From the NCBI GenBank assembly GCA_002269645.1, contig NIVC01000103.1, forward strand, positions 741,393 to 805,392: 64,000 nucleotides of DNA, in the 5' to 3' direction. The DNA is from Macrostomum lignano. Its lineage: Eukaryota. Each line of letters opens with the position of its first letter. The stretch's first letter is position 1. Under the pieces are notes generated by a model that worked only from the letters and a program-made list of their open reading frames with translations, had not been told where the DNA came from and ran no database searches. A program made the translations under genes and the position numbers. Shown in pieces: positions 1 to 43,955 of the stretch.

Positions 1-349
1 GCTTATTATTGCCATTTACCCTAAAATTGCACTACATACATTGCTATATTATCTACTTTTATTCTAGCCCCAATGCAACACCAAAAAATTCCAAAATTGC
101 AATGGATGGGCAGATGCCTTTTGTCCACTTATTCCAATAAAGTGTATAAATGAAGCTTTGCTTTAATTGAGTTAAATAAATATCTTCAAGTCTTAATCAT
201 ATCTTATAATGTATTATCAACAAAGTATTGAAGCTTAAAAATATAAAAAAATTAATATTATCCAACTGTTACACTATAGTCTATATTAAATCAATAAGAT
301 CTGTCTGTCTCTGTCTAGTATTTCAGTTTACAGCCTGAGTGCCTTGATC

Positions 350-732
350 CATTTTGCGGATGGTGGGATATACGCTGGAAAATTCCGGCATACACTTGAT
401 TTCCGTGGCGTACACCAGCATACATTTCTTGGCTGTGTACAGTGTGGTGTATGGCAACTGGCGTAGAAATATATATAAAGATTTTTTTGTGCTTTTTCTG
501 TGTTAAGTTATTTCAAAAACTATTTTCTCATTTACTAATCATTTTAATTACCGGAATTGTCACAACAATTGTCATGTTATCAATTTTTGTAGTTTAAATT
601 TGAATTTAAATATTCGTTGATTTTTTTGACCATTTTTATTAAAAATGGCATACATTTAAAATCTGTTGGCATACCATTGAAAATTCAATAAAAATATGTC
701 CGGCGTACACAGAAAACCTTTTGCAATATGGG
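350..732. mobile_element. Putative MITE (hAT-like non-autonomous DNA element)
   Basis: Flanked by an 8-bp direct repeat CCTTGATC (342-349, 733-740). Imperfect short TIR (CCATTTTGC / GCAATATGG). Multiple subterminal GGC(A/G)TAC motifs. No ORF. Confidence 0.35.
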
Positions 733-980
733 CCTTGATCAATATGAAGTAATATATTAAAAGTTAATATAAAATCTATTTTATATTCCTAAATATTTTT
801 TTAATATTGAATATACTTGAATTTTTTATAAAAGATATCAATTTCTTTATTATTTGTCTGATTTTATTATGTGTTAGTAAGACATATTTTTACTCAGGCA
901 AATAATATTATTGAAATAGAATTTAAATCTAAAAAATTAATATAAAATCTCAATAGAGTCCTAATTTCTTAATTTTTTTA

Positions 981-9028: not shown

Positions 9029-9231
9029 ATCCATTTTTATTACAAATATATAATATTTGTTAAAATAAGCCGAATTTATAATTGCGTTTATTCTTGCATG
9101 ATGACAGATTTTAATATTGACCTTTAATGTAATCTTGTAGATCAAAACGGACTAAGAGAAATTCATCAATTAATTTTAGGTAAATTTCCCAAGTTTATTA
9201 CTTGCAGTAGCAGCTAATTGATGATGCTGAT

Positions 9232-9296
9232 ATGATGAAGAATATTTCGAATTCCTCGTTGTTGAATTAATGTGAAATGAATATAATTGCACCTGA
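9232..9296 (+). ncRNA. C/D box snoRNA, family 4
   Basis: ATGATGA, GAATTCCTCGTTG-TTGA, D CTGA. Confidence 0.85.
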
Positions 9297-9764
9297 ATAA
9301 AATTTTTGTCTTCTTTAGAGTAGGTTGTTATGCTATTTTTAGCTTTTATCCCATTTATCAAAGGCCCCATTTTTTATTTTCAGATTTGCTTGAATATGGA
9401 TATCTAGAAAATTTTAACTACTGTTGGTAAGTAGGATGAACACCGCTGAAATTAATTTTATCAGTTGCTTTTAGCTTTAAATCTTAACTATAATTTTTTA
9501 ACCTGTAATTTTAGAGAATGACCAACTGTCTCTACTACAAGTAATTATCAGCAGTCGAACCCTGCGTGAAAAGTACATTTTTACCTAGGAAAAGTGCAAT
9601 GGTGCTCAGAGTCTGAAGAAACTGACATTTTGTTGTACTCGCGTCTTTCATACTCTTCCTAATTAATCTAGTTTGCGGAAACACTTAAATATACACAAAT
9701 TTTACTTTACAGCTTTTTATTTCTAACAGTATTGTGTTATACTCTTTTATAGGGTCAGGTGTGA

Positions 9765-10435
9765 AATGGCCCATGATCACTATGACCACCATGACCCCCA
9801 GGTGTGCAATGGTTTATGATCATTATAACCACTATGGCCCCTAGGTGTACGTTGGTCTATGATCATTATGACCACCATGACCCCCAGGTGTGCAATGGTC
9901 CTTCAGGTATGCAATCATCCATAATCATTATGACCACTATGACCCCCATGTGTGCAATGGTCCAGGATTACTATGACCCTCCGGTGTGTAATGGTCCATT
10001 GGTCCATGATTACTGACCCCCTGGTGTACAATGGTCCATGACTGACTACTATGACCCCCAGGTGTCCAATGGTCCATGATCATTATGACCCCCAGGTGTC
10101 CAATGGTCCATGATCATTATGACCCCCAGGTGTGCAATGGTCCATGATCATTATGACCCCCAGGTGTGCAATGGTCCATGATCATTATGACCCCCAGGTG
10201 TGCAATGGTCCATGATCATCAATATGACCAATATGACCCCAGGTGTGCAATGGTCCATGATCATCAATATGACCAATATGACCCCAGGTGTGCAATGGTC
10301 CATGATCATTATGACCACTATGACCCCAGGTGTGCAATGGTCCATGATCATTATGACCACTATGACCCCCAGGTGTGCAATGGTCCATGATAATTATGCC
10401 CACTATGACCCCTAGGTGTGCAATGGTGCATGATC
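9765..10435. repeat. 34-43-bp minisatellite (GACCCCCAGGTGTGCAATGGTCCATGATCATTAT)n
   Basis: Tandem array read directly. Confidence 0.95.
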
Positions 10436-33900: not shown

Positions 33901-34558
33901 CAAGCGAGACTGTGTCAGTTCCAAGCGAGACTGTGTCAGTCCCAAGCGAGACTGTGTCAGTCCCAAGCGAGACTGTGTCAGTTCTAATTCAGACTGTGTC
34001 AGTTCCAAGCGAGACTGTGTCAGTCCCAAGTCAGACTGTGTCATTCCAAGCGAGACTGTGTCAGTCCCAAGTCAGACTGTGTCAGTCCCAAGCGAGACTG
34101 TGTCAGTCCCAAGTCAGACTGTGTCATTCCCAAGTGAGACTGTGTCAGTCTTAAGTGAGACTGTGTCAGTTCTAATTCAGACTGTGTCAGTCCTAAGTCA
34201 GACTGTGTCATTCCCAAGTGAGACTGTGTCAGTCTTAAGTGAAACTGTGTCAGTCCCAAGTGAGACTGTGTCAGTCCCAAGTGAGACTGTGTCAGTCCCA
34301 AGTCAGACTGTGTCAGTCCCAAGTGAGACTGTGTCAGTTCCAAGTGAGATTGTGTCAGTTCCAAGTGAGACTGTCAGTTCCAAGTGAGACTGTGTCAGTT
34401 CCAAGTGAGACTGTGTCAGTTCCAATAAGACTGTGTCAGTTCCAAGTGAGACTGTGTCAGTCCCAAGTGAAAATGTGTCAGTTCCAAGTGAGACTGTGTC
34501 AGTTCCAAATGAGACTGTGTCAGTCCCAAGTGAGACTGTGTCAGTCCCAAGTGAGACT
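30980..34558. repeat. 21-bp satellite (GAGACTGTGTCAGTTCCAAGT)n, left of LTR insertion
   Basis: ~170 tandem units. Confidence 0.97.
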
Positions 34559-35435
34559 TATAAGCTTCCTAGTTGGCCGCAAACTAAGAACCTTACATAT
34601 GATTAATAGTGACTCAAACGAGGTAGAATATGCTTGGATGTTATTTACCGATCAACCATATAATTATATTTACTACTGCATTTTCAACGTTTGTATTAAT
34701 AAGCAAATAAGCGAGCTACAAGCAGGGAGAATAAGTCTGAGACACTACGGTATAACTAAGCTACTCAAATACTCCTATTAATCTATTATATATATATATA
34801 AATTACGCCTATCTACCTGGTCTGAGACCGATACGCTAATATTCATAAATCTATAGTCATGTCAGTGCTCAGTCTTACCCTCCGGTCACAGGTGTCTGCA
34901 GAAGCGGTCGTCATGATTTGCAAACTATTAAGCAATCCAAAAGTTAATACAAGGCGTTTAAAAGAGAGTGAAAAGAGAGTGAGAAAAGGGTAAAGTTTTT
35001 AGCATTTAACCCCTCGCTTATTTATAGTAAATTTCCCCGATGAAGTCCCTGTGAAACTGTCTGCGTTATCATTTCCCACGTCTTCCAGCCACCGCGCAAT
35101 TCCGGCCGATTCTTACGGTTCCCCTTTCTCGTGCGATTCCTGAAATGCCTCTGTTAAAAAATGTAATTGAACCCCGCCCCACATAAAGGCATACAACCCC
35201 TCTAAAGTGGAAGCAGACTTTTACGGCGGCCTGCACTCGCCCTTTGCAATGCCGTCATCAAGCACTTGTGGCTTTTTGTAAGAGTGCAGCTGTCCACAAC
35301 TGCTACACTCCACCACGCTCTGATAACAATGCAATTCCCTAATTTCCTAAATCCTAAGTCATATTCCTAATAGTTCCTACGATAGTCCCTAAATAGTCCC
35401 TAAGGCCTACATGCATATGAAATTGAATCCTTATA
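34559..35435 (-). repeat. 3' LTR
   Basis: Termini TATAAG...CTTATA; near-identical to the other LTR. Confidence 0.95.
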
Positions 35436-35437
35436 TT

Positions 35438-35452
35438 ACTCCCCCTTTTTTC
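35438..35452 (-). promoter_or_regulatory. Polypurine tract
   Basis: Minus strand GAAAAAAGGGGGAG 3 nt before the 3' LTR. Confidence 0.85.
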
Positions 35453-35659
35453 AAATGTGGTCCCCACATTTGCATTTAGTAAAATATGGAGATGAAGAAA
35501 TCATTGAGACTAGTATGAAAGCAAATAGCTGTAAGTATGAGCGAATGATTTTAATCTCGTAAAGCTTTTATCATTCTGGATATAGCGATGTAGCTCGTTC
35601 AATCTCACCTCAAAACCATCTGCGATCTTCGATTTATGTTGTCCGACTCAACTTGAGCT

Positions 35660-36034
35660 TCAGTTGTCCTCTGAGCTGTCCTCTTCAGTAGTATTCGCAT
35701 TACCCTCGTTTCTTAGGAGAGAAAGTAGTTTGGTGCAGCAGATAACTATCAGCTCCCAAATAATGCGTCCCTCGCGATATTCGTCATCGTACATATCGTC
35801 AGCGAGATTGCGGAGCTCCGTCTTGTATACATCAATCGGCCGTGTCGGTGGCGGCTCTCTGAATTCTACTTCAGAAACTCCCGGTTCGTATAGTCTACGT
35901 GCTTCCGTTCGGATATCTTCCAAGATGGGTATTACTCTTTCCTTATAACCCGGCAGTAGGGGGGAGAACCATTGAAAGAAGTGGATCCTATGGTAGATCC
36001 ATGCTCGGCGCTCAAAGTCGTTCAGGATATTCAT
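35660..36034 (-). CDS. Small ORF2 of LTR element, unknown function, in frame with the polyprotein
   Basis: 124 aa from ATG; the 18 codons between it and the polyprotein TAA are open. Confidence 0.45.
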   Translation of the reverse strand: MNILNDFERRAWIYHRIHFFQWFSPLLPGYKERVIPILEDIRTEARRLYEPGVSEVEFREPPPTRPIDVYKTELRNLADDMYDDEYREGRIIWELIVICCTKLLSLLRNEGNANTTEEDSSEDN

Positions 36035-36088
36035 GGTTCTAGTTCTTGCGTGGACGCAAAGTGAATCTCTTACAAGCTGATTCCTCTG

Positions 36089-39000
36089 TTACTTCTGTCT
36101 GCTTGGATTCATTTCTTTGATGATCTGAACTTCGACCATATGCTGTTTTCCTCCTATCTCTAAGTGAATTGTACCTCTTCCTATGAACTGAAGCTGGGAA
36201 TTTCCCACTCCTACTGCAATTATATCACTCCTGTTCCACGTTATTTTTAATGCGTCGGCCAATCTTTTACTGATCACAGTCAGCGTCGCTCCTGTATCGA
36301 TCAAGGTATGTACCCCTCTTCGTCCTTGTGGTGTCACAACCGGTAACGTTATTATGGATTTCATAACACTCCCCAAGGTGAATATCGAATGCTGTTTCCT
36401 TATTTGTTTCTCACTAGGGGGTATCGGAATGGTTGTCTCTGCTTGTGGTGCTTGAACTCCAGTCAGATTAACAGTAACATAATTTTCTGTTGGCAAGTTC
36501 GGAACCACATCTGTGTGCTGCTGTATAGCCGCTTCTTGTTTCTTTGATAGTGCAATTCTTCCTGTCCTTTGCACATATAAGAATTTTATTATTCGCAGAA
36601 TTATATAGATCCACACAATTGCGCATGTTGTCGTAATAAACAGACTGTAGAAACTGATATGGAAACCAAAAGTCGCTCGAAAAAGCATTCCGAAAAGTCC
36701 GTTAGCTAGCTGCAGTGGCGAAAAATCTGCTAACCAACTCATATCAGTCCCATTTTCTGGTTCACCTACGACTCCAAATGTGTGTAAAAGTACGTTATTG
36801 TTCTCTACGAATAAATCCAACAAGTCAGCAAGGTGGATTGGCGTTCGAAGGTCACTTATCTGCACATCTGCGATAGGATGATACACTCCTGTCGTTGTCT
36901 TAATAGTTAAAGGCTGAAAGTCACTTCCGAAAGATAAGACATGCACTTCATTTTCCATCCGTGCCACTGTTCCGTTTTGGTCGACTTCGAATGGGTCACC
37001 TTCAATTGAGACGTAATATGGAATCACATTTTTACATGCTTCTTTGTGAACATCTGCTGTGATTATTTTTGTTTCCGTGTTCAAAAATGCCTTTATCGTT
37101 TCATTTTTCTCATTGAACTGGACTGGTGGTTGCGCATAACAAGCGTCGCGTCGTGCTTCCTGAGGCAAGAATGTTATGTTGAAAATATTCTTGCACGGGT
37201 ACACCACAACGAATTCTCGGGTCACTACTGCCTCAATTTCTTCTTTTCCAATTATTCTCCTCATCACCTTTGTCGGGCTATTAATTAATGACAATCGTAG
37301 ATTCTTCACTGTGGCCTTGAAATTCTGACAAGCAAGTTTTATTGTATTACGTTCCAATTTTCGTAATCTCTCCAATTCCTTAATCTCCACAGCTTCAAAT
37401 TCAGCGGCGATCATTGAAGCCGATTCTAGTTCGAACTCAAGACTTCTTTTCTTCCTTGCCTTTAGATCGGTCGACTCTAGTGAAGACATCTTTTTCCTTT
37501 TCAGTTTGCTTTTCATCAACTTCCTGAATAGCTTTGTCTTGCTGGAACTCAGTTTCTTGTGTGCTTGATGCGCAATTATTAGGCGTAGTCTCTCTGTATC
37601 TGACTCGTCTGATGCCAATTGGATGTAAACGCCTTGCTCAGCTCTAAATAAAGTTATGTTCACTTCACTGCAATTTAGTGTACGTTCGACAGGTCGTTTA
37701 GCGAACTGGAATGCCATCGTTTGATCATCCGACATGAGAAACGTTGAATGTAGAAATCCTTCCTTGGTTGCAAAGGGCAATAATTCACAACTCCGATTTT
37801 TCTCCACTTGCCAGACTAACGTGAATGCTCTTTCACCTTCGTAATACCAATAATGAACATCCGATTTTTGGGCTGATTCTATCTGCATCGATTCCCAAGG
37901 AGGGTGCTTATTCATGACTGCCATAGGCAAGGCCATCACTTTGTCAATAGGCATCCGCATCTCACACATTCCTGACCTGTAAGCGCATTCTTCGATCCGG
38001 AATTTCATGCTACTCATTGCTCCATTCCGTAAATAGAATTTTATTCCTGTCATCACGGAATCTACTGTGCCGACATTCGTCCCTACCGCTCCTGGAAAGC
38101 TTATCCATTTTATCTTTGGTGCAGAATCTGTCCTGTATAACGTAGATCCATCATTACTCCATACCTCGTGTAATTCTCCGATGCTTGATTTCCTTTCTTC
38201 ATGCCATCGCTTGCAGTTCTCACTTAAAACCTCATGGGGTGTAACCTTGAAGACAATGCTGTGGTGGATATTCATCACTGTTCCCCACCACTTTGCTTCG
38301 ACACGAATCTCTTCTCGATGACATACAACCATTTTCCCATCGAATGTTTGCGTATTCGGCTTAAATATCGTAAAGTTAATGTGCTCTGCACTATTCTGGT
38401 TCCTGTTTAATTCTGGACAGGTGATTTCTTCTGGAAATCGGAATACCTGCTGTCCGACCGATCGGTCACAGACTAGTCCGTAGGTCATTTGATTCGACGC
38501 AGAGCCTTGCAACTCGGTCTCGGCCCGAACTCCTCCTAGGCTTAAAAGCATGAAGACGAAAAGGAAAATTATCTTCCATGACCATCGCTCCGCTGTCCGA
38601 GGTTTCATTTCCATGACGTTAATTTCTGGGAACTCAAGAAGCTGAAGTTCCTCATTACCACCGGTCTGCTCATACTCATGCGCAGAATCTGTTCCTTCGA
38701 CTGCATTTTGCGCGTCAACCACATTCACTCCTGCTCCTCTTCCTCTTCCGACAGTTCCTCGGCCTCTATTGATTTGTCCTCTGCTTGAGTATCGTCCGCC
38801 TCGTCCACGATTTCCTCGACCATATCCTTGGTTGTTGGCAAAAGATCCTCTGTTCCAATATCCTCTTGGGTTTCCTACTTGGCCTCGATTTCCTCTTCCT
38901 CGATTCCACTGATTTTGAGGATTAAATCCTCGAGGCTGCCATCCTCTTGGGTTTTGCTGACCTCTATATTGGTTTTGCCAGTGGTTCTGCCATCCATTGT

Positions 39001-39955
39001 CTCTAGGATGGCTGTACGTCCATTCTCTCCGTTGAACTCCAGCATTGCCATCCATCTGCAAGGCCATTACCTCTAGTTTCTTATTGATGCTGTCGAGTTG
39101 AGCTTCTGTCTCCGTCCTAAGTGGCTCTACCGACTCGAAGTGGTTTGCTCGGCTTAGCAATTGCTGGGTAGTCTGGATATTTTCATCCAGTAGTTTGTTG
39201 CGGAGATAGATGCGCGAATTACTAATTGCATACCGCACGACCAACTTTTCGGCCTGTCTTCGCATTAATTCGCGATTCCCTTCCGCGCCTGGTTCAATTC
39301 CTTCTGCGTTCACCATTTTCTGAACAAGTTGACGAATATCGTTGTAAAAGTCCATGAATTTCTCGCCTTCCTTTTGCTTTCTAGCTGTTAACTGGGTCAT
39401 TGTGACAACGTCGTTAGGAGCGTAATTTCGCATTTCTTCCTTCAGTGCTTCAGCCATGTGCGCATAAGTAGCTTTCCTTTCATTCGGAATCGCTCTATAG
39501 ATCTCCATCACTTGTCGTTCAAGAAAGAATGGAAAAATTCTTAGTTTATTTGCAGCCGTTACATTGAAGACCTCAGACGCTGTATCAAAGTCGTCCAAAA
39601 ATTTGGCTACATCTCCAAAAAGTGCAAGTGGTTTGACCATCTTTTCCATTGCAGTGATCGTTGATCCGATTCCTGCTGCCATTTCGGCGTCGTCTCCTCC
39701 ACCTGCTCCTGCTTCTGGTTGTTCGTCCACTTCTGCTTCTTCTGTTTCTTCTGGTTCGGCTTCGTCTGTTTCGACTTCAACCTCTTCTTCTTCTTCTTTT
39801 TCTACCTCTATTTCTTCTGTTTCGACTTCGGCTTCGGATTCTCCTATTTCTTGATCAGCTCTTAGATTGCCTTGATTCTGATTTCTTCCTACTATGTCGT
39901 TAAATTCACTTGTGAAATCTCCAGAACCTGTTTCTGTCACTAATGTTTCCAGCAA
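36089..39955 (-). CDS. Gag - gB-like envelope glycoprotein - aspartic protease polyprotein
   Basis: Gag-like core (FLDDFD...LRIFPFFL...RKQKEGEKFMDFYNDIRQLV), RG-rich NC-like tract, internal signal WKIIFLFVFMLLSLGGVRA (~38580-38522), Cys-patterned glycosylated ectodomain with furin site RKKR (37446-37457), TM (~36665-36575), protease LIDTGA (D at 36296-36298). First in-frame ATG at 39682. Confidence 0.9.
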   Translation of the reverse strand: MLETLVTETGSGDFTSEFNDIVGRNQNQGNLRADQEIGESEAEVETEEIEVEKEEEEEVEVETDEAEPEETEEAEVDEQPEAGAGGGDDAEMAAGIGSTITAMEKMVKPLALFGDVAKFLDDFDTASEVFNVTAANKLRIFPFFLERQVMEIYRAIPNERKATYAHMAEALKEEMRNYAPNDVVTMTQLTARKQKEGEKFMDFYNDIRQLVQKMVNAEGIEPGAEGNRELMRRQAEKLVVRYAISNSRIYLRNKLLDENIQTTQQLLSRANHFESVEPLRTETEAQLDSINKKLEVMALQMDGNAGVQRREWTYSHPRDNGWQNHWQNQYRGQQNPRGWQPRGFNPQNQWNRGRGNRGQVGNPRGYWNRGSFANNQGYGRGNRGRGGRYSSRGQINRGRGTVGRGRGAGVNVVDAQNAVEGTDSAHEYEQTGGNEELQLLEFPEINVMEMKPRTAERWSWKIIFLFVFMLLSLGGVRAETELQGSASNQMTYGLVCDRSVGQQVFRFPEEITCPELNRNQNSAEHINFTIFKPNTQTFDGKMVVCHREEIRVEAKWWGTVMNIHHSIVFKVTPHEVLSENCKRWHEERKSSIGELHEVWSNDGSTLYRTDSAPKIKWISFPGAVGTNVGTVDSVMTGIKFYLRNGAMSSMKFRIEECAYRSGMCEMRMPIDKVMALPMAVMNKHPPWESMQIESAQKSDVHYWYYEGERAFTLVWQVEKNRSCELLPFATKEGFLHSTFLMSDDQTMAFQFAKRPVERTLNCSEVNITLFRAEQGVYIQLASDESDTERLRLIIAHQAHKKLSSSKTKLFRKLMKSKLKRKKMSSLESTDLKARKKRSLEFELESASMIAAEFEAVEIKELERLRKLERNTIKLACQNFKATVKNLRLSLINSPTKVMRRIIGKEEIEAVVTREFVVVYPCKNIFNITFLPQEARRDACYAQPPVQFNEKNETIKAFLNTETKIITADVHKEACKNVIPYYVSIEGDPFEVDQNGTVARMENEVHVLSFGSDFQPLTIKTTTGVYHPIADVQISDLRTPIHLADLLDLFVENNNVLLHTFGVVGEPENGTDMSWLADFSPLQLANGLFGMLFRATFGFHISFYSLFITTTCAIVWIYIILRIIKFLYVQRTGRIALSKKQEAAIQQHTDVVPNLPTENYVTVNLTGVQAPQAETTIPIPPSEKQIRKQHSIFTLGSVMKSIITLPVVTPQGRRGVHTLIDTGATLTVISKRLADALKITWNRSDIIAVGVGNSQLQFIGRGTIHLEIGGKQHMVEVQIIKEMNPSRQK

Positions 39956-40828
39956 TGAATTTCTAACACTTTCTGATGCGGCGGAGTCTTCTACCAGCGT
40001 GGAGTTTATCTCACTCTCTATTGCTTCTTCGTTTATATGATCTACTTCTGATATTTGATCAGAGCTCTTCGGGGACTTTTTCTTATTTCTTAACCAATAG
40101 CTTGCCAGGTTTTGTAATCAAAGTAGATATCGATATCTTATTTAGACAAATAATCTGTTGTTAAATTTGTGCTAAACACATATAGTCTTGAAATATAAAT
40201 TTAATAGACTGCCCTAATAATATTCCTTTTCTTTTGCTATTGTGGGACAAATATCTCATATATATATAACTCACAGCAACCTTAGGTCCTTTTGTGTGCA
40301 CGTCACTCGGTTCGGAAGTTTGAAGATTACTTGGAGCACTTTGACCGGCTATTCGGTAACGAATAATACCAGGGTGGCTAGTCCCAAGAACAGGTTGAAC
40401 AGGTAATATGTAGCCTAAAGAAAGAAAATGGTTGAATAGGTTAGTCTCGAGCTTTCCTGAGTCTTCCACGACCGAACCATGCAATGCGCTCACTAAAGGG
40501 GTGGATTTGGCTCGCGCGAAATATTGCCTTACCACCTAATTTGTGGTCACCTTGTGTGCCACTCTCTGAGGTACCTCTTTAATATAAAGTTTCTGTGGCC
40601 AAAATATTAAACAAATATTTTATTGACTGGCGCTGAAAATGTGACTTCAAAAGTCAACTGGCCACTGTCCCACTAAATTAATGACATGCATGTCCAAATT
40701 ATAAATAATTTAATAATTCAATAATAAACCTAGGTGCTGTGTCAGCTTTTGCTGAATTATGCGCCAGACATAATAATTGGGCAGCTATCAAGACTATCCT
40801 GGCAAAGTCCCTCTAAATTACCTTTTAG

Positions 40829-40839
40829 CGTGGTCGCCA
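40829..40839 (-). promoter_or_regulatory. Primer-binding site, tRNA-Arg-like
   Basis: TGGCGACCACG 2 nt inside the 5' LTR boundary; complementary to a tRNA 3' end CGUGGUCGCCA, matching tRNA-Arg(UCG) as I recall it. Confidence 0.75.
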
Positions 40840-41030
40840 AATATAAGCTTCCTAGTTGGCCGCAAACTAAGAACCTTACATATGATTAATAGTGACTCAA
40901 ACGAGGTAGAATATGCTTGGATGTTATTTACCGATCAACCATATAATTATATTTACTACTGCATTTTCAACGTTTGTATTAATAAGCAAATAAGCGAGCT
41001 ACAAGCAGGGAGAATAAGTCTGAGACACTA

Positions 41031-42340
41031 CGAGGGTCACTCAGAAAGTTCTTAGCCTGAACACGAAAACAGCAACAAATGAACTAAAAAACGACTACTA
41101 GTGCTCAAAATACTCTCCACCGGCATTGATACAGGCTTGCATCCTGTGAAACCAGCTGTCAAAGCACTGCCGCCAATCCTCATCCCGGAGCTCTTCGATG
41201 ATGTTTTTGAACTCATTCACAGCTTCTTCCGGTGAAGAAAAGACCTGACCCTTCAGAATCTCCTTGCACTTCGGAAACAGAAAAAAGTCGCACGGTGCCA
41301 GATCTGGACTATACGCAGGGTGAGTCATCAGCTGGACCCCACAGTCAGCCAGAAACTCAAGAGTTTGAGCCGCCGTGTGCTCGCTGGCGTTGTCGTGGTG
41401 CAGAAGCACCCCGCGCATTCCGCACCTTGGGCGCCTCTGGCTCACAGCAGAAAAGACTTTGGGCAGGCAAACCGTTGTGTACCAGTCAGCGGTGACTGTC
41501 TGGCGATCTTCAAGTGAAACGGAAGCCACATGCCCAGTGCGCATGAAGAAACAGGCCACCATCTGCTTGCCGACACTCCGGCTGCGTCGAAACTTGGTGG
41601 GGCTGTCCTCGTCTCCAAAGGTCCACATGGCTGACTGGCGCTTGCTTTCGGGGTCGTATTGATAAATCCAGGTCTCATCGCCCGTGAGAATGTCCCAGAT
41701 ACGCCGGCTGGTCCCAGATTCGAATTTCTGCAACATGAATCGGCACCAAGCCACCCTGGTGTCCTTCTGCACGTCCGACAGCTGATGGGGGATCCACCGG
41801 GAAGCCAGCTTCCGCACTCCAATGTGTTCGTGCAGAATGGCGTGCACACTACCCGATCCAATACCGATCTCCTGCTGGATCTGCTGGTAGGTCACTCGCC
41901 GGTCAGCGGCAATCATGCTGGACACAGCGCAGATATTTTCTGGAGTCACTGCGTCACAGGGTCTCCCGGATCGATGTTCATCTTCGAGGCTTTCTCGACC
42001 TCGGCCAAACTCAGCGAACCAGTTTTTGACGGTTGCGTATGAAGGACATACATGGGTAAAAACGTTCTGTAAAGTTTGATACGATTCGGTCGGCGACTTG
42101 CCTTGCTTGAAGTGCAAGTAAATCATTGCCCTGAAGTCGCGATTTTCCAGCTTCATTGTTGAATTGAAGAACTCAGGGGGTGAACTGACTTTAACTCGCT
42201 GCAGTGGACTCAAAAGTGGCTGCTTCTGTTTGAAATTTTTGTTGCAATACTTTTAAAAGTTGGTCTTTACCATAGACAAATTTCATGCTTCTACGTCTCG
42301 TGGATCCTACTCAGGCTAAAGACTTTCTGAGTGACCCTCG
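41031..42340 (-). mobile_element. Full-length mariner (DD34D) transposon
   Basis: 30-bp TIRs CGAGGGTCACTCAGAAAGT(TC/CT)TTAGCCTGA, TA TSD, 1310 bp. Confidence 0.97.
41098..42213 (-). CDS. Mariner transposase, intact
   Basis: WIPHQL, TGDETW, HHDNA, YSPDLAPCD; 34 residues between D2 and D3. Likely start at MKLENRDF. Confidence 0.97.
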   Translation of the reverse strand: MSPLQRVKVSSPPEFFNSTMKLENRDFRAMIYLHFKQGKSPTESYQTLQNVFTHVCPSYATVKNWFAEFGRGRESLEDEHRSGRPCDAVTPENICAVSSMIAADRRVTYQQIQQEIGIGSGSVHAILHEHIGVRKLASRWIPHQLSDVQKDTRVAWCRFMLQKFESGTSRRIWDILTGDETWIYQYDPESKRQSAMWTFGDEDSPTKFRRSRSVGKQMVACFFMRTGHVASVSLEDRQTVTADWYTTVCLPKVFSAVSQRRPRCGMRGVLLHHDNASEHTAAQTLEFLADCGVQLMTHPAYSPDLAPCDFFLFPKCKEILKGQVFSSPEEAVNEFKNIIEELRDEDWRQCFDSWFHRMQACINAGGEYFEH

Positions 42341-43030
42341 TACGGTATAACTAAGCTACTCAAATACTCCTATTAATCTATTATATATATATATAAATTA
42401 CGCCTATCTACCTGGTCTGAGACCGATACGCTAATATTCATAAATCTATAGTCATGTCAGTGCTCAGTCTTACCCTCCGGTCACAGGTGTCTGCAGAAGC
42501 GGTCGTCGTGATTTGCAAACTATTAAGCAATCCAAAAGTTAATACAAGGCGTTTAAAAGAGAGTGAAAAGAGAGTGAGAAAAGGGTAAAGTTTTTAGCAT
42601 TTAACCCCTCGCTTATTTATAGTAAATTTCCCCGATGAAGTCCCTGTGAAACTGTCTGCGTTATCATTTCCCACGTCTTCCAGCCACCGCGCAATTCCGG
42701 CCGATTCTCACGGTTCCCCTTTCTCGTGCGATTCCTGAAATGCCTCTGTTAAAAAATGTAATTGAACCCCGCCCCACATAAAGGCATACAACCCCTCTAA
42801 AGTGGAAGCAGACTTTTACGGCGGCCTGCACTCGCCCTTTGCAATGCCGTCATCAAGCACTTGTGGCTTTTTGTAAGAGTGCAGCTGTCCACAACTGCTA
42901 CACCCCACCACGCTCTGATAACAATGCAATTCCCTAATTTCCTAAATCCTAAGTCATATTCCTAATAGTTCCTACGATAGTCCCTAAATAGTCCCTAAGG
43001 CCTACATGCATATGAAATTGAATCCTTATA

Positions 43031-43955
43031 AGACTGTGTCAGTCCCAAGTGAGACTGTGTCAGTCCCAATAAGACTGTGTCAGTTCCAAGTGAGACTGTG
43101 TCAGTCCCAAGTGAGACTGTGTCAGTCCCAAGTGAGACTGTGTCAGTCCCAAGTGAGACTGTGTCAGTCCCAAGTGAGACTGTGTCAGTCCCCAGTGAGA
43201 CTGTGTCAGTTCCCAAGTGAGATTGTGTCAGTCCCAAGTGAAACTGTGTCAGTCCCCAGTGAGACTGTGTCAGTCCCAAGTGAGACTGTGTCAGTCCCAA
43301 GTCAGACTGTGTCAGTCCCAAGTCAGACTGTGTCAGTCCCAATCGAGACTGTGTCAGTCCCAAGTGAGACTGTGTCAGTCCCAAGTGAAACTGTGTCAGT
43401 CCCAAGTGAGACTGTGTCAGTCCCAAGAAGACTGTGTCAGTTCCAAGTGAGACTGTGTCAGTCCCAAGTGAGACTGTGTCAGTCCCAAGAAGACTGTGTC
43501 AGTTCCAAGTGAGACTGTGTCAGTCCCAATAAGACTGTGTCAGTCCCAAGTGAGACTGTGTCAGTCCCAATAAGACTGTGTCAGTTCCAAGTGAGACTGT
43601 GTCAGTTCCAAGTGAGACTGTGTCAGTCCCAAGTGAGACTGTGTCAGTCCCCAGTGAGACTGTGTCAGTTCCCAAGTGAGACTGTGTCAGTCCCAAGTGA
43701 AACTGTGTCAGTCCCCAGTGAGACTGTGTCAGTCCCCAGTGAGACTGTGTCAGTTCCCAAGTGAGACTGTGTCAGTCCCAAGTGAAACTGTGTCAGTCCC
43801 AAGTGAGACTGTGTCAGTCCCGAGTGAGACTGTGTCAGTCCCAAGTGAAACTGTGTCAGTGTTAAGTGAGACTGTGTCAGTCCCAAGTGAGACTGTGTCA
43901 GTCCCCAGTGAGACTGTGTCAGTTCCCAAGTGAGACTGTGTCAGTTCCCAAGTGA
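43031..43955. repeat. 21-bp satellite, right of LTR insertion
   Basis: Continuation of the 30980-34558 array. Confidence 0.97.

What the first reader, a model, noticed from the sequence alone, without database searches (positions are those of the whole stretch)
36089..39955. LTR element with a single Gag-Env-Protease polyprotein (envelope between gag and pro)
In the env-bearing LTR elements and retroviruses I know, env lies 3' of pol as a separate or spliced ORF. Here one uninterrupted frame runs Gag core, RG-rich NC-like tract, internal signal (basic residues, hydrophobic core, predicted VRA|ETE cleavage), ~620-aa glycosylated ectodomain, TM, cytosolic linker, then LIDTGA protease. The topology is self-consistent: Gag cytosolic, Env luminal, PR back in the cytosol after the stop-transfer TM. 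This resembles a flavi/alphavirus structural polyprotein and would give roughly 1:1 Gag:Env stoichiometry. I do not recognise a described element with this order.
Basis: partly seen in the sequence, partly recalled or inferred. Interest (0 to 1): 0.92.

Follow-up and report, generated by a model that had tools for sequence, protein, structure and literature searches.

The report
Defective flatworm gag-env-pol retrotransposon copy
This is a young but internally deleted copy of a flatworm jumping gene whose envelope gene sits between its capsid and enzyme genes in one long reading frame, an unusual order that is real and widespread but already described in nematodes, bryozoans and flatworms.

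Summary
One open frame (40117-36092, minus) runs capsid, RG tract, signal-like segment, class III fusogen ectodomain (herpes gB / nyamivirus G fold), TM, protease. It lies between 99.7% identical LTRs with a 5-bp target duplication. The frame stops inside the protease because about 3.3 kb of pol is deleted; sister copies carry RT-RH-IN there. Four distant families in the same genome have unbroken 2370-2866 aa Gag-Env-PR-RT-RH-IN frames with env under purifying selection, and 28 of 150 database hits, two named as nematode, share the order. It is neither a one-off nor a chimera, but it is catalogued: GAG-ENV-POL Ty3/gypsy elements with gB-type env are described in nematodes, bryozoans and flatworms (PMC13524379, citing Sacco 2022), including a Macrostomum lignano element with the PBS and LTR length of one sister family. 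New here: a divergent family (RT 32-39% to its sisters, no zinc knuckle, TA...TA LTR ends) and comparative support for an internal signal. Processing is inferred, not shown. Earlier scan notes held only a loosely similar diatom copia case.

The parts
40842..43030 (-). 5' LTR (877 bp of LTR sequence, interrupted by a mariner); ends TA...TA
41031..42340 (-). mariner transposon inserted in the 5' LTR, TA duplicated, open 352-aa transposase
40828..40839 (-). primer-binding site, 2 nt inside the 5' LTR end; differs from that of sister families A/B; tRNA not identified by a call
36089..40117 (-). single open frame, 1342 codons stop to stop (P0001); first ATG at 39682
39038..39682 (-). Gag capsid region, aa146-360
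38732..39025 (-). RG/RGN-rich nucleocapsid-like tract, no zinc knuckle
   Evidence: sister families carry CCHC here
38516..38608 (-). signal-like segment aa504-534 (basic, hydrophobic, small residues); cleavage after Ala534 is predicted by eye only
36644..38515 (-). class III (gB / nyamivirus G-like) fusogen ectodomain aa535-1158, furin-like RKKR at 37445-37456
36578..36643 (-). transmembrane helix aa1159-1180
36101..36325 (-). aspartic protease aa1265-1339 with DTG, lacking its last strand
36101..36106 (-). junction of an internal deletion of about 3.3 kb (end of PR, RT, RNase H, nearly all of integrase), at a short imperfect microhomology
35660..36034 (-). 124-aa ORF 3' of pol, no family match; open in 2 of 4 sister copies
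35439..35452 (-). polypurine tract
34559..35435 (-). 3' LTR, 877 bp, 3 mismatches to the 5' LTR
34554..34558 (+). 5-bp target-site duplication (second copy 43031-43035) inside a 21-bp satellite array

Best explanation
The window holds a recent, non-autonomous copy of a Ty3/gypsy (Metaviridae) element of the known GAG-ENV-POL kind with a gB-type envelope. SHOWN: in this lineage gag, env and pol are one reading frame; env has a class III fusogen fold, is kept by purifying selection in sister families, and is flanked by a signal-like segment and a TM; this copy has lost RT-RH-IN. INFERRED mechanism for intact members (about 0.6): the genomic RNA is translated from the first ATG; the internal signal sends Env into the ER lumen and signal peptidase frees its N-terminus, leaving Gag on the cytosolic side tethered by the signal stub; the TM stops transfer, so PR-RT-RH-IN hangs from Env's cytosolic tail; furin cuts the ectodomain; particles bud with Pol carried in on the Env tail, trimeric Env bringing protease monomers together; the protease then releases capsid, nucleocapsid and enzymes. 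The window copy could make Gag and Env but no RT or integrase, and probably no active protease.
For: Single frames of 2370-2538 aa in 13 of 20 stretches fetched (picked for long frames), with Pfam order CCHC, fusion, PR, RT, RH, IN in the six scanned (the fusion family reached E<=0.01 in three of them); a further 2866-aa family. Sister copies 96-99% identical continue into RT-RH-IN. 28 of 150 hits Gag>Env>Pol, 24 Gag>Env, 23 Env>Pol, none with RT before Env. Signal-like 13-mer in 43 of 47 against 22 of 1000 control windows; TM in 39 of 51. Met just before the signal in 12 of 47 against 87 of 282 control windows. dN/dS of env 0.05-0.09 in four within-family pairs. Fold matches E 2e-25 to nyamivirus-type G, 1e-20 to HSV gB. 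A 4,840-nt contig of run X1 spans Gag to PR with 4 differences and no gap; a contig of run X5, another study, bridges the deletion junction. Published order: PMC13524379.
Against: No cleavage, glycosylation, particle or protein evidence. No fully open Gag-to-IN copy of the window's own family was found (four RT-bearing sisters, all broken; only 35 of 5534 candidates scored). The positive-inside test at the TM was weak (30 of 51). The window family and family A do have a Met just before the signal. Some database proteins may be spliced gene models. TM-scores to gB are modest (0.37-0.44).
Confidence: 0.88

Rival explanations
1. Same element, but the long frame is not the main product: Env (with Pol attached) starts at a Met just before the signal from a spliced or subgenomic RNA, or splicing skips env to give ordinary Gag-Pol and excess Gag.
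For: Met502/504 in the window and a Met about 15 residues before the hydrophobic core in all six family A frames examined make an ordinary N-terminal signal. A 1:1:1 Gag:Env:Pol ratio is far from that of most LTR elements (recalled knowledge).
Against: Families B (L029, L030), C and D lack such a Met, and it is not enriched across relatives (12 of 47 vs 87 of 282). The Gag-Env spacer differs in length (270-408 aa from knuckle to first Env Cys) yet stays open in the frames examined (frames picked for being open). The one joint is not GT-AG and matches a genomic deletion copy (L063).
Confidence: 0.25
2. The window copy is a selected Gag-Env element (a helper-dependent form, or a host-retained envelope gene) rather than a chance deletion.
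For: It is the only family member found with an unbroken Gag-Env-PR frame, has near-identical LTRs, and the junction is present in two runs of different studies.
Against: Only one copy with this junction was found; youth explains the open frame; other deletion forms and many solo LTRs show routine decay; a mariner sits in its 5' LTR.
Confidence: 0.08
3. Assembly chimera or one-off rearrangement.
For: The element lies in satellite DNA and many sister copies show frameshifts.
Against: Both junctions recur in sister copies, in four distant families and in nematode proteins; run contigs span them; LTRs, PBS, PPT and target duplication are coherent.
Confidence: 0.01

Closest known systems
GAG-ENV-POL, HSV/gB-type env-carrying Ty3/gypsy elements ('errantiviruses' in the operational sense) of Nematoda, Bryozoa and Platyhelminthes, incl. 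Mlig_errantivirus_2 (Chary and Hayashi 2026, PMC13524379)
   Same: Gene order, gB-type env, Ty3/gypsy pol order, host group. The Macrostomum row gives an 864-bp LTR and a PBS identical to those of family A here.
   Different: The window family is another family: RT 37-38% to family A, different PBS, 877-bp LTR with TA...TA ends against TG...CA, no CCHC. The supplement lists one Macrostomum element. The main text has no 'polyprotein', 'fused', 'single ORF', 'in-frame' or 'splic', but notes ectodomains flanked by two TM segments; its figures were not visible.
Non-canonical nematode endogenous retroviruses (Sacco et al. 2022, J Gen Virol, doi 10.1099/jgv.0.001739)
   Same: Cited as having env and pol in flipped order. 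From recall, not from a call, its abstract describes a continuous gag-env-pro-pol ORF with nyamivirus-like env; Foldseek ranks nyamivirus G second here, and Globodera and Caenorhabditis proteins show the fused order.
   Different: Host phylum; the flatworm RTs group apart from the nematode-named RTs in a 21-sequence tree. The paper could not be read.
Flavivirus / alphavirus structural polyproteins (recalled)
   Same: Capsid, internal signal, luminal glycoprotein, stop-transfer anchor, cytosolic enzymes in one chain.
   Different: No homology; class III rather than class II fusogen; reverse-transcribing. An analogy of mechanism only.

Membership tests
Ty3/gypsy LTR retrotransposons (Metaviridae) | LTRs, PBS, PPT and target-site duplication | tested here: met
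Ty3/gypsy LTR retrotransposons (Metaviridae) | pol order PR-RT-RH-IN | tested here: met
   met in 96-99% identical sister copies, in pieces; deleted from the window copy itself
Ty3/gypsy LTR retrotransposons (Metaviridae) | retroelement capsid fold in Gag | tested here: met
   top Foldseek rows are dArc and retroviral capsids, best E 0.006; sequence match to sister Gag E 4e-18; weak on its own
Ty3/gypsy LTR retrotransposons (Metaviridae) | RT groups with reference Ty3/gypsy clades | not tested
   the tree has no curated or env-less references; the homologue search for them timed out
Ty3/gypsy LTR retrotransposons (Metaviridae) | usual TG...CA LTR ends (common, not obligatory) | tested here: not met
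   TA...TA ends with perfect 5-bp duplications in 8 of 12 LTR loci examined
GAG-ENV-POL gB-type elements (PMC13524379; Sacco 2022) | env between gag and pol | tested here: met
GAG-ENV-POL gB-type elements (PMC13524379; Sacco 2022) | HSV/gB-type (class III) ectodomain between a signal or TM and a TM | tested here: met
   profile to EBV gB E 2e-12; Foldseek E 1e-20; hydropathy
GAG-ENV-POL gB-type elements (PMC13524379; Sacco 2022) | intact element with full RT and IN (the paper's inclusion rule) | tested here: not met
   window copy lacks RT-RH-IN; no unbroken copy of its family found; met by families A-D
GAG-ENV-POL gB-type elements (PMC13524379; Sacco 2022) | identity with the listed Mlig_errantivirus_2 | tested here: not met
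   PBS and LTR length match family A, not the window family
Insect errantiviruses (Drosophila gypsy type) | F-type env as a separate ORF 3' of pol | tested here: not met
   class III env 5' of pol
Membrane-threaded viral polyprotein (works-like claim) | signal-peptidase cleavage and luminal glycosylation of the internal domain | not testable with these tools
   only sequence statistics

The most novel reading that the evidence does not exclude
These elements make one membrane-threaded Gag-Env-Pol polyprotein, so that the reverse transcriptase and integrase enter the particle on the cytosolic tail of the fusogen rather than as Gag-Pol, with protease activation tied to Env trimers; the window family adds an integrase lineage that uses TA...TA ends. 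I found no text that states or tests this processing model, but Sacco 2022 and the eLife figures could not be seen.
Probability: 0.45. Interest if true: 0.6.

Novelty: new member of a known kind. Interest (0 to 1): 0.3.

Why it matters
The gene order is published, and this copy is defective, so the finding is not a discovery of a new architecture. What it adds is a set of five divergent families in a genetically tractable flatworm, evidence that their env is under purifying selection, and statistics that favour an internal signal over a separate Env start. That makes an open question testable: how an LTR element with one Gag-Env-Pol frame sets its protein ratios and packages its enzymes. The TA...TA ends are a small separate oddity for integrase specificity.

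Tried and rejected
Expression: no RNA holder listed; runs X1 and X5 are only guessed to be RNA, so says nothing on transcription or splicing. The single joint 36272-40180 in run X10 was considered as a splice and rejected: ends are not GT-AG and it matches genomic copy L063. Read-through from the long frame into the 142-codon frame behind its stop was considered and rejected: the adjacency is made by the deletion, and in sisters integrase ends there in another frame. The 124-aa 3' ORF has no Pfam, Atlas or family A match. Pfam and PDB sequence searches do not recognise the window Gag. A near-length protein search found only 2 relatives; an RT search for reference clades timed out. Positive-inside test inconclusive. 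A-versus-B dN/dS saturated. Sacco 2022 not held; searches for 'gag-env-pro-pol' and for the processing model returned 0 papers; searches gave nothing closer. PMC12801592 (passages) classifies M. lignano LTR families and has no 'envelope'. Earlier-finding look-ups by place and sequence were empty.

Full report
Observation. The minus strand holds one open frame of 1342 codons from 40117 to the stop at 36089. From there the frame reads capsid, an RG-rich tract without zinc knuckle, a basic-hydrophobic-small segment (aa504-534), a 624-aa domain with 12 cysteines, 8 N-sequons and RKKR, a TM helix, a linker of about 90 aa and a DTG protease. Pfam gives Monjiviricetes_fusion (E 2e-10) and aspartic protease (E 2e-6). 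A four-sequence env profile hits Epstein-Barr virus gB in the PDB (E 2e-12). An AlphaFold model (pLDDT 79) matches nyamivirus-type, chuvirus-type and herpes gB glycoproteins (E down to 2e-25 and 1e-20; TM 0.2-0.45). The Gag model's best rows are dArc and retroviral capsids, none below E 0.001.

The element. It spans 34559-43030 inside a 21-bp satellite. The LTRs are 877 bp with 3 mismatches, the 5' one interrupted by a mariner; there is a PBS, a PPT and a 5-bp target duplication. There is no RT or integrase. Sister copies at 96-99% (L021, L022) leave the window sequence at 36101, run through the end of the protease, RT, RNase H and integrase, and rejoin at 36106; about 3.3 kb is missing from the window at a short imperfect microhomology. 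So the stop inside the protease is the scar of a deletion. It is not an assembly error: a contig of run X1 covers 36073-40842 with 4 differences and no gap, a contig of run X5 from another study bridges the junction, and loose ends in X9 and X10 show the undeleted form too. All four RT-bearing sisters found are broken; one lacks gag-env instead (L063); the LTR search gave 42 matches from 40 scored candidates. No unbroken member of this family (W) was found.

Relatives in the genome. The protein search of G000 gave 61 matches from 35 of 5534 candidates scored. Of 20 stretches fetched, chosen for closeness or long frames, 13 hold single frames of 2370-2538 aa, 2 distant ones are split, and 5 are W-like. 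Pfam order is CCHC, fusion protein, PR, RT, RH, IN. They fall into families A, B and C; a fourth, D, has 2866 aa. W's RT is 32-39% identical to them, and in a 21-sequence FastTree tree, midpoint-rooted and without curated references, the five families group at 0.97, apart from the nematode-named RTs. Env dN/dS is 0.05-0.09 in four within-family pairs, against 0.33-0.57 for the Gag-Env spacer. A family A protein is 99% identical to a UniRef record named Macrostomum lignano, which gives the likely host.

Relatives elsewhere. The env profile found 419 proteins at E<=0.001; the best 150 were classed with my own profiles: 28 Gag>Env>Pol, 24 Gag>Env, 23 Env>Pol, 2 with an extra protease before Env, 73 Env only; none has RT before Env ('Gag' includes a CCHC knuckle alone, 'Pol' any one enzyme). 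Of 10 looked up, two are named nematode proteins (Globodera rostochiensis, Caenorhabditis tropicalis) and one M. lignano; Pfam confirms their order. Some may be spliced gene models.

Mechanism. In 47 proteins with a long stretch before Env (four of them my queries), 43 have a hydrophobic 13-mer just before it, against 22 of 1000 RT-IN control windows, and 44 have a net positive stretch before that; 39 of 51 have a TM between Env and PR, but only 30 of 51 are more positive after it. A Met within 25 residues before the signal occurs in 12 of 47, no more than in control windows (87 of 282), although W and family A have one. This favours an internal signal in one chain. The steps that follow (signal-peptidase release of Env, Gag tethered by the stub, Pol on Env's tail, furin cleavage, protease activation at budding) are inference from the layout and from general knowledge of viral polyproteins. 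Spliced or subgenomic RNAs are not excluded: no run on record as RNA was listed.

What is known. Chary and Hayashi (PMC13524379; seen: abstract, sections 5, 6 and 9 first parts, section 14, passages, searched rows of supplementary tables; not the figures) report that elements of Nematoda, Bryozoa and Platyhelminthes carry only gB-type env and are arranged GAG-ENV-POL, in several clades, following Sacco et al. 2022. Their table lists 9 flatworm and 10 bryozoan elements, among them Mlig_errantivirus_2 with 16 copies, an 864-bp LTR and a PBS equal to family A's. The preprint version was seen as passages. Sacco 2022 was seen only as a reference line; my recollection of its abstract is a continuous gag-env-pro-pol ORF with nyamivirus-like env, which would make the single frame known as well. 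PMC12801592 (passages) classifies LTR families of this worm without mentioning an envelope. I found no text on the processing model; unseen figures, the unread paper and closed preprint supplements may hold it.

Verdict. Real, not an artefact, and part of a widespread, selected architecture, but a published one; the window copy is a defective member of a family that does not match the one listed for this species. New member of a known kind; interest 0.3. The untested polyprotein mechanism is what remains worth pursuing.

Noticed in passing
window 34559-35435; L052-L055, L057, L060-L062: Family W LTRs end TA...TA, not TG...CA; 8 of 12 LTR loci examined are solo LTRs with perfect 5-bp duplications. 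Family C's LTR also begins TATAAG after a similar PPT.
   Followed up: partly
L026:1028-1696 and 325-957 (-); L029:8500-9150 and 9077-9823 (+): Families A and B carry two extra ORFs 3' of pol with tandem RING-like cysteine clusters (Pfam RING, E 4e-7 to 2e-3 in three of four); the first in family A begins with Met-Gly, a possible myristoylation signal (recalled motif); the second lies at or in the 3' LTR.
   Followed up: partly
window 35660-36034 (-): 124-aa ORF 3' of pol in family W, open in the window, L021 and L063, broken in L022 and L065; no family match.
   Followed up: partly
window 41031-42340: Intact-looking mariner with an open 352-aa transposase inserted in the 5' LTR, later than the retroelement itself.
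   Followed up: no
L052, L053: Two solo LTRs of family W sit in the same 21-bp satellite with the same target duplication as the window element: either allelic or duplicated versions of this locus after LTR-LTR recombination, or repeated targeting.
   Followed up: no
L063:1803-6607: A family W copy lacking gag and env, with the leader joined to the middle of the protease; same join seen in run X10.
   Followed up: yes
P0015, P0042, P0026, P0108: Some distant relatives have more than one protease-like match: one before Env (P0015, P0042) or a long double match after it (P0026, P0108).
   Followed up: no
window 5000-60200: The window is packed with unrelated minisatellite arrays (units of 8 to 36 bp).
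   Followed up: no
window 39683-40117 (-): 145 open codons upstream of the first ATG, strongly Glu-rich; may be untranslated or use a non-AUG start.
   Followed up: no
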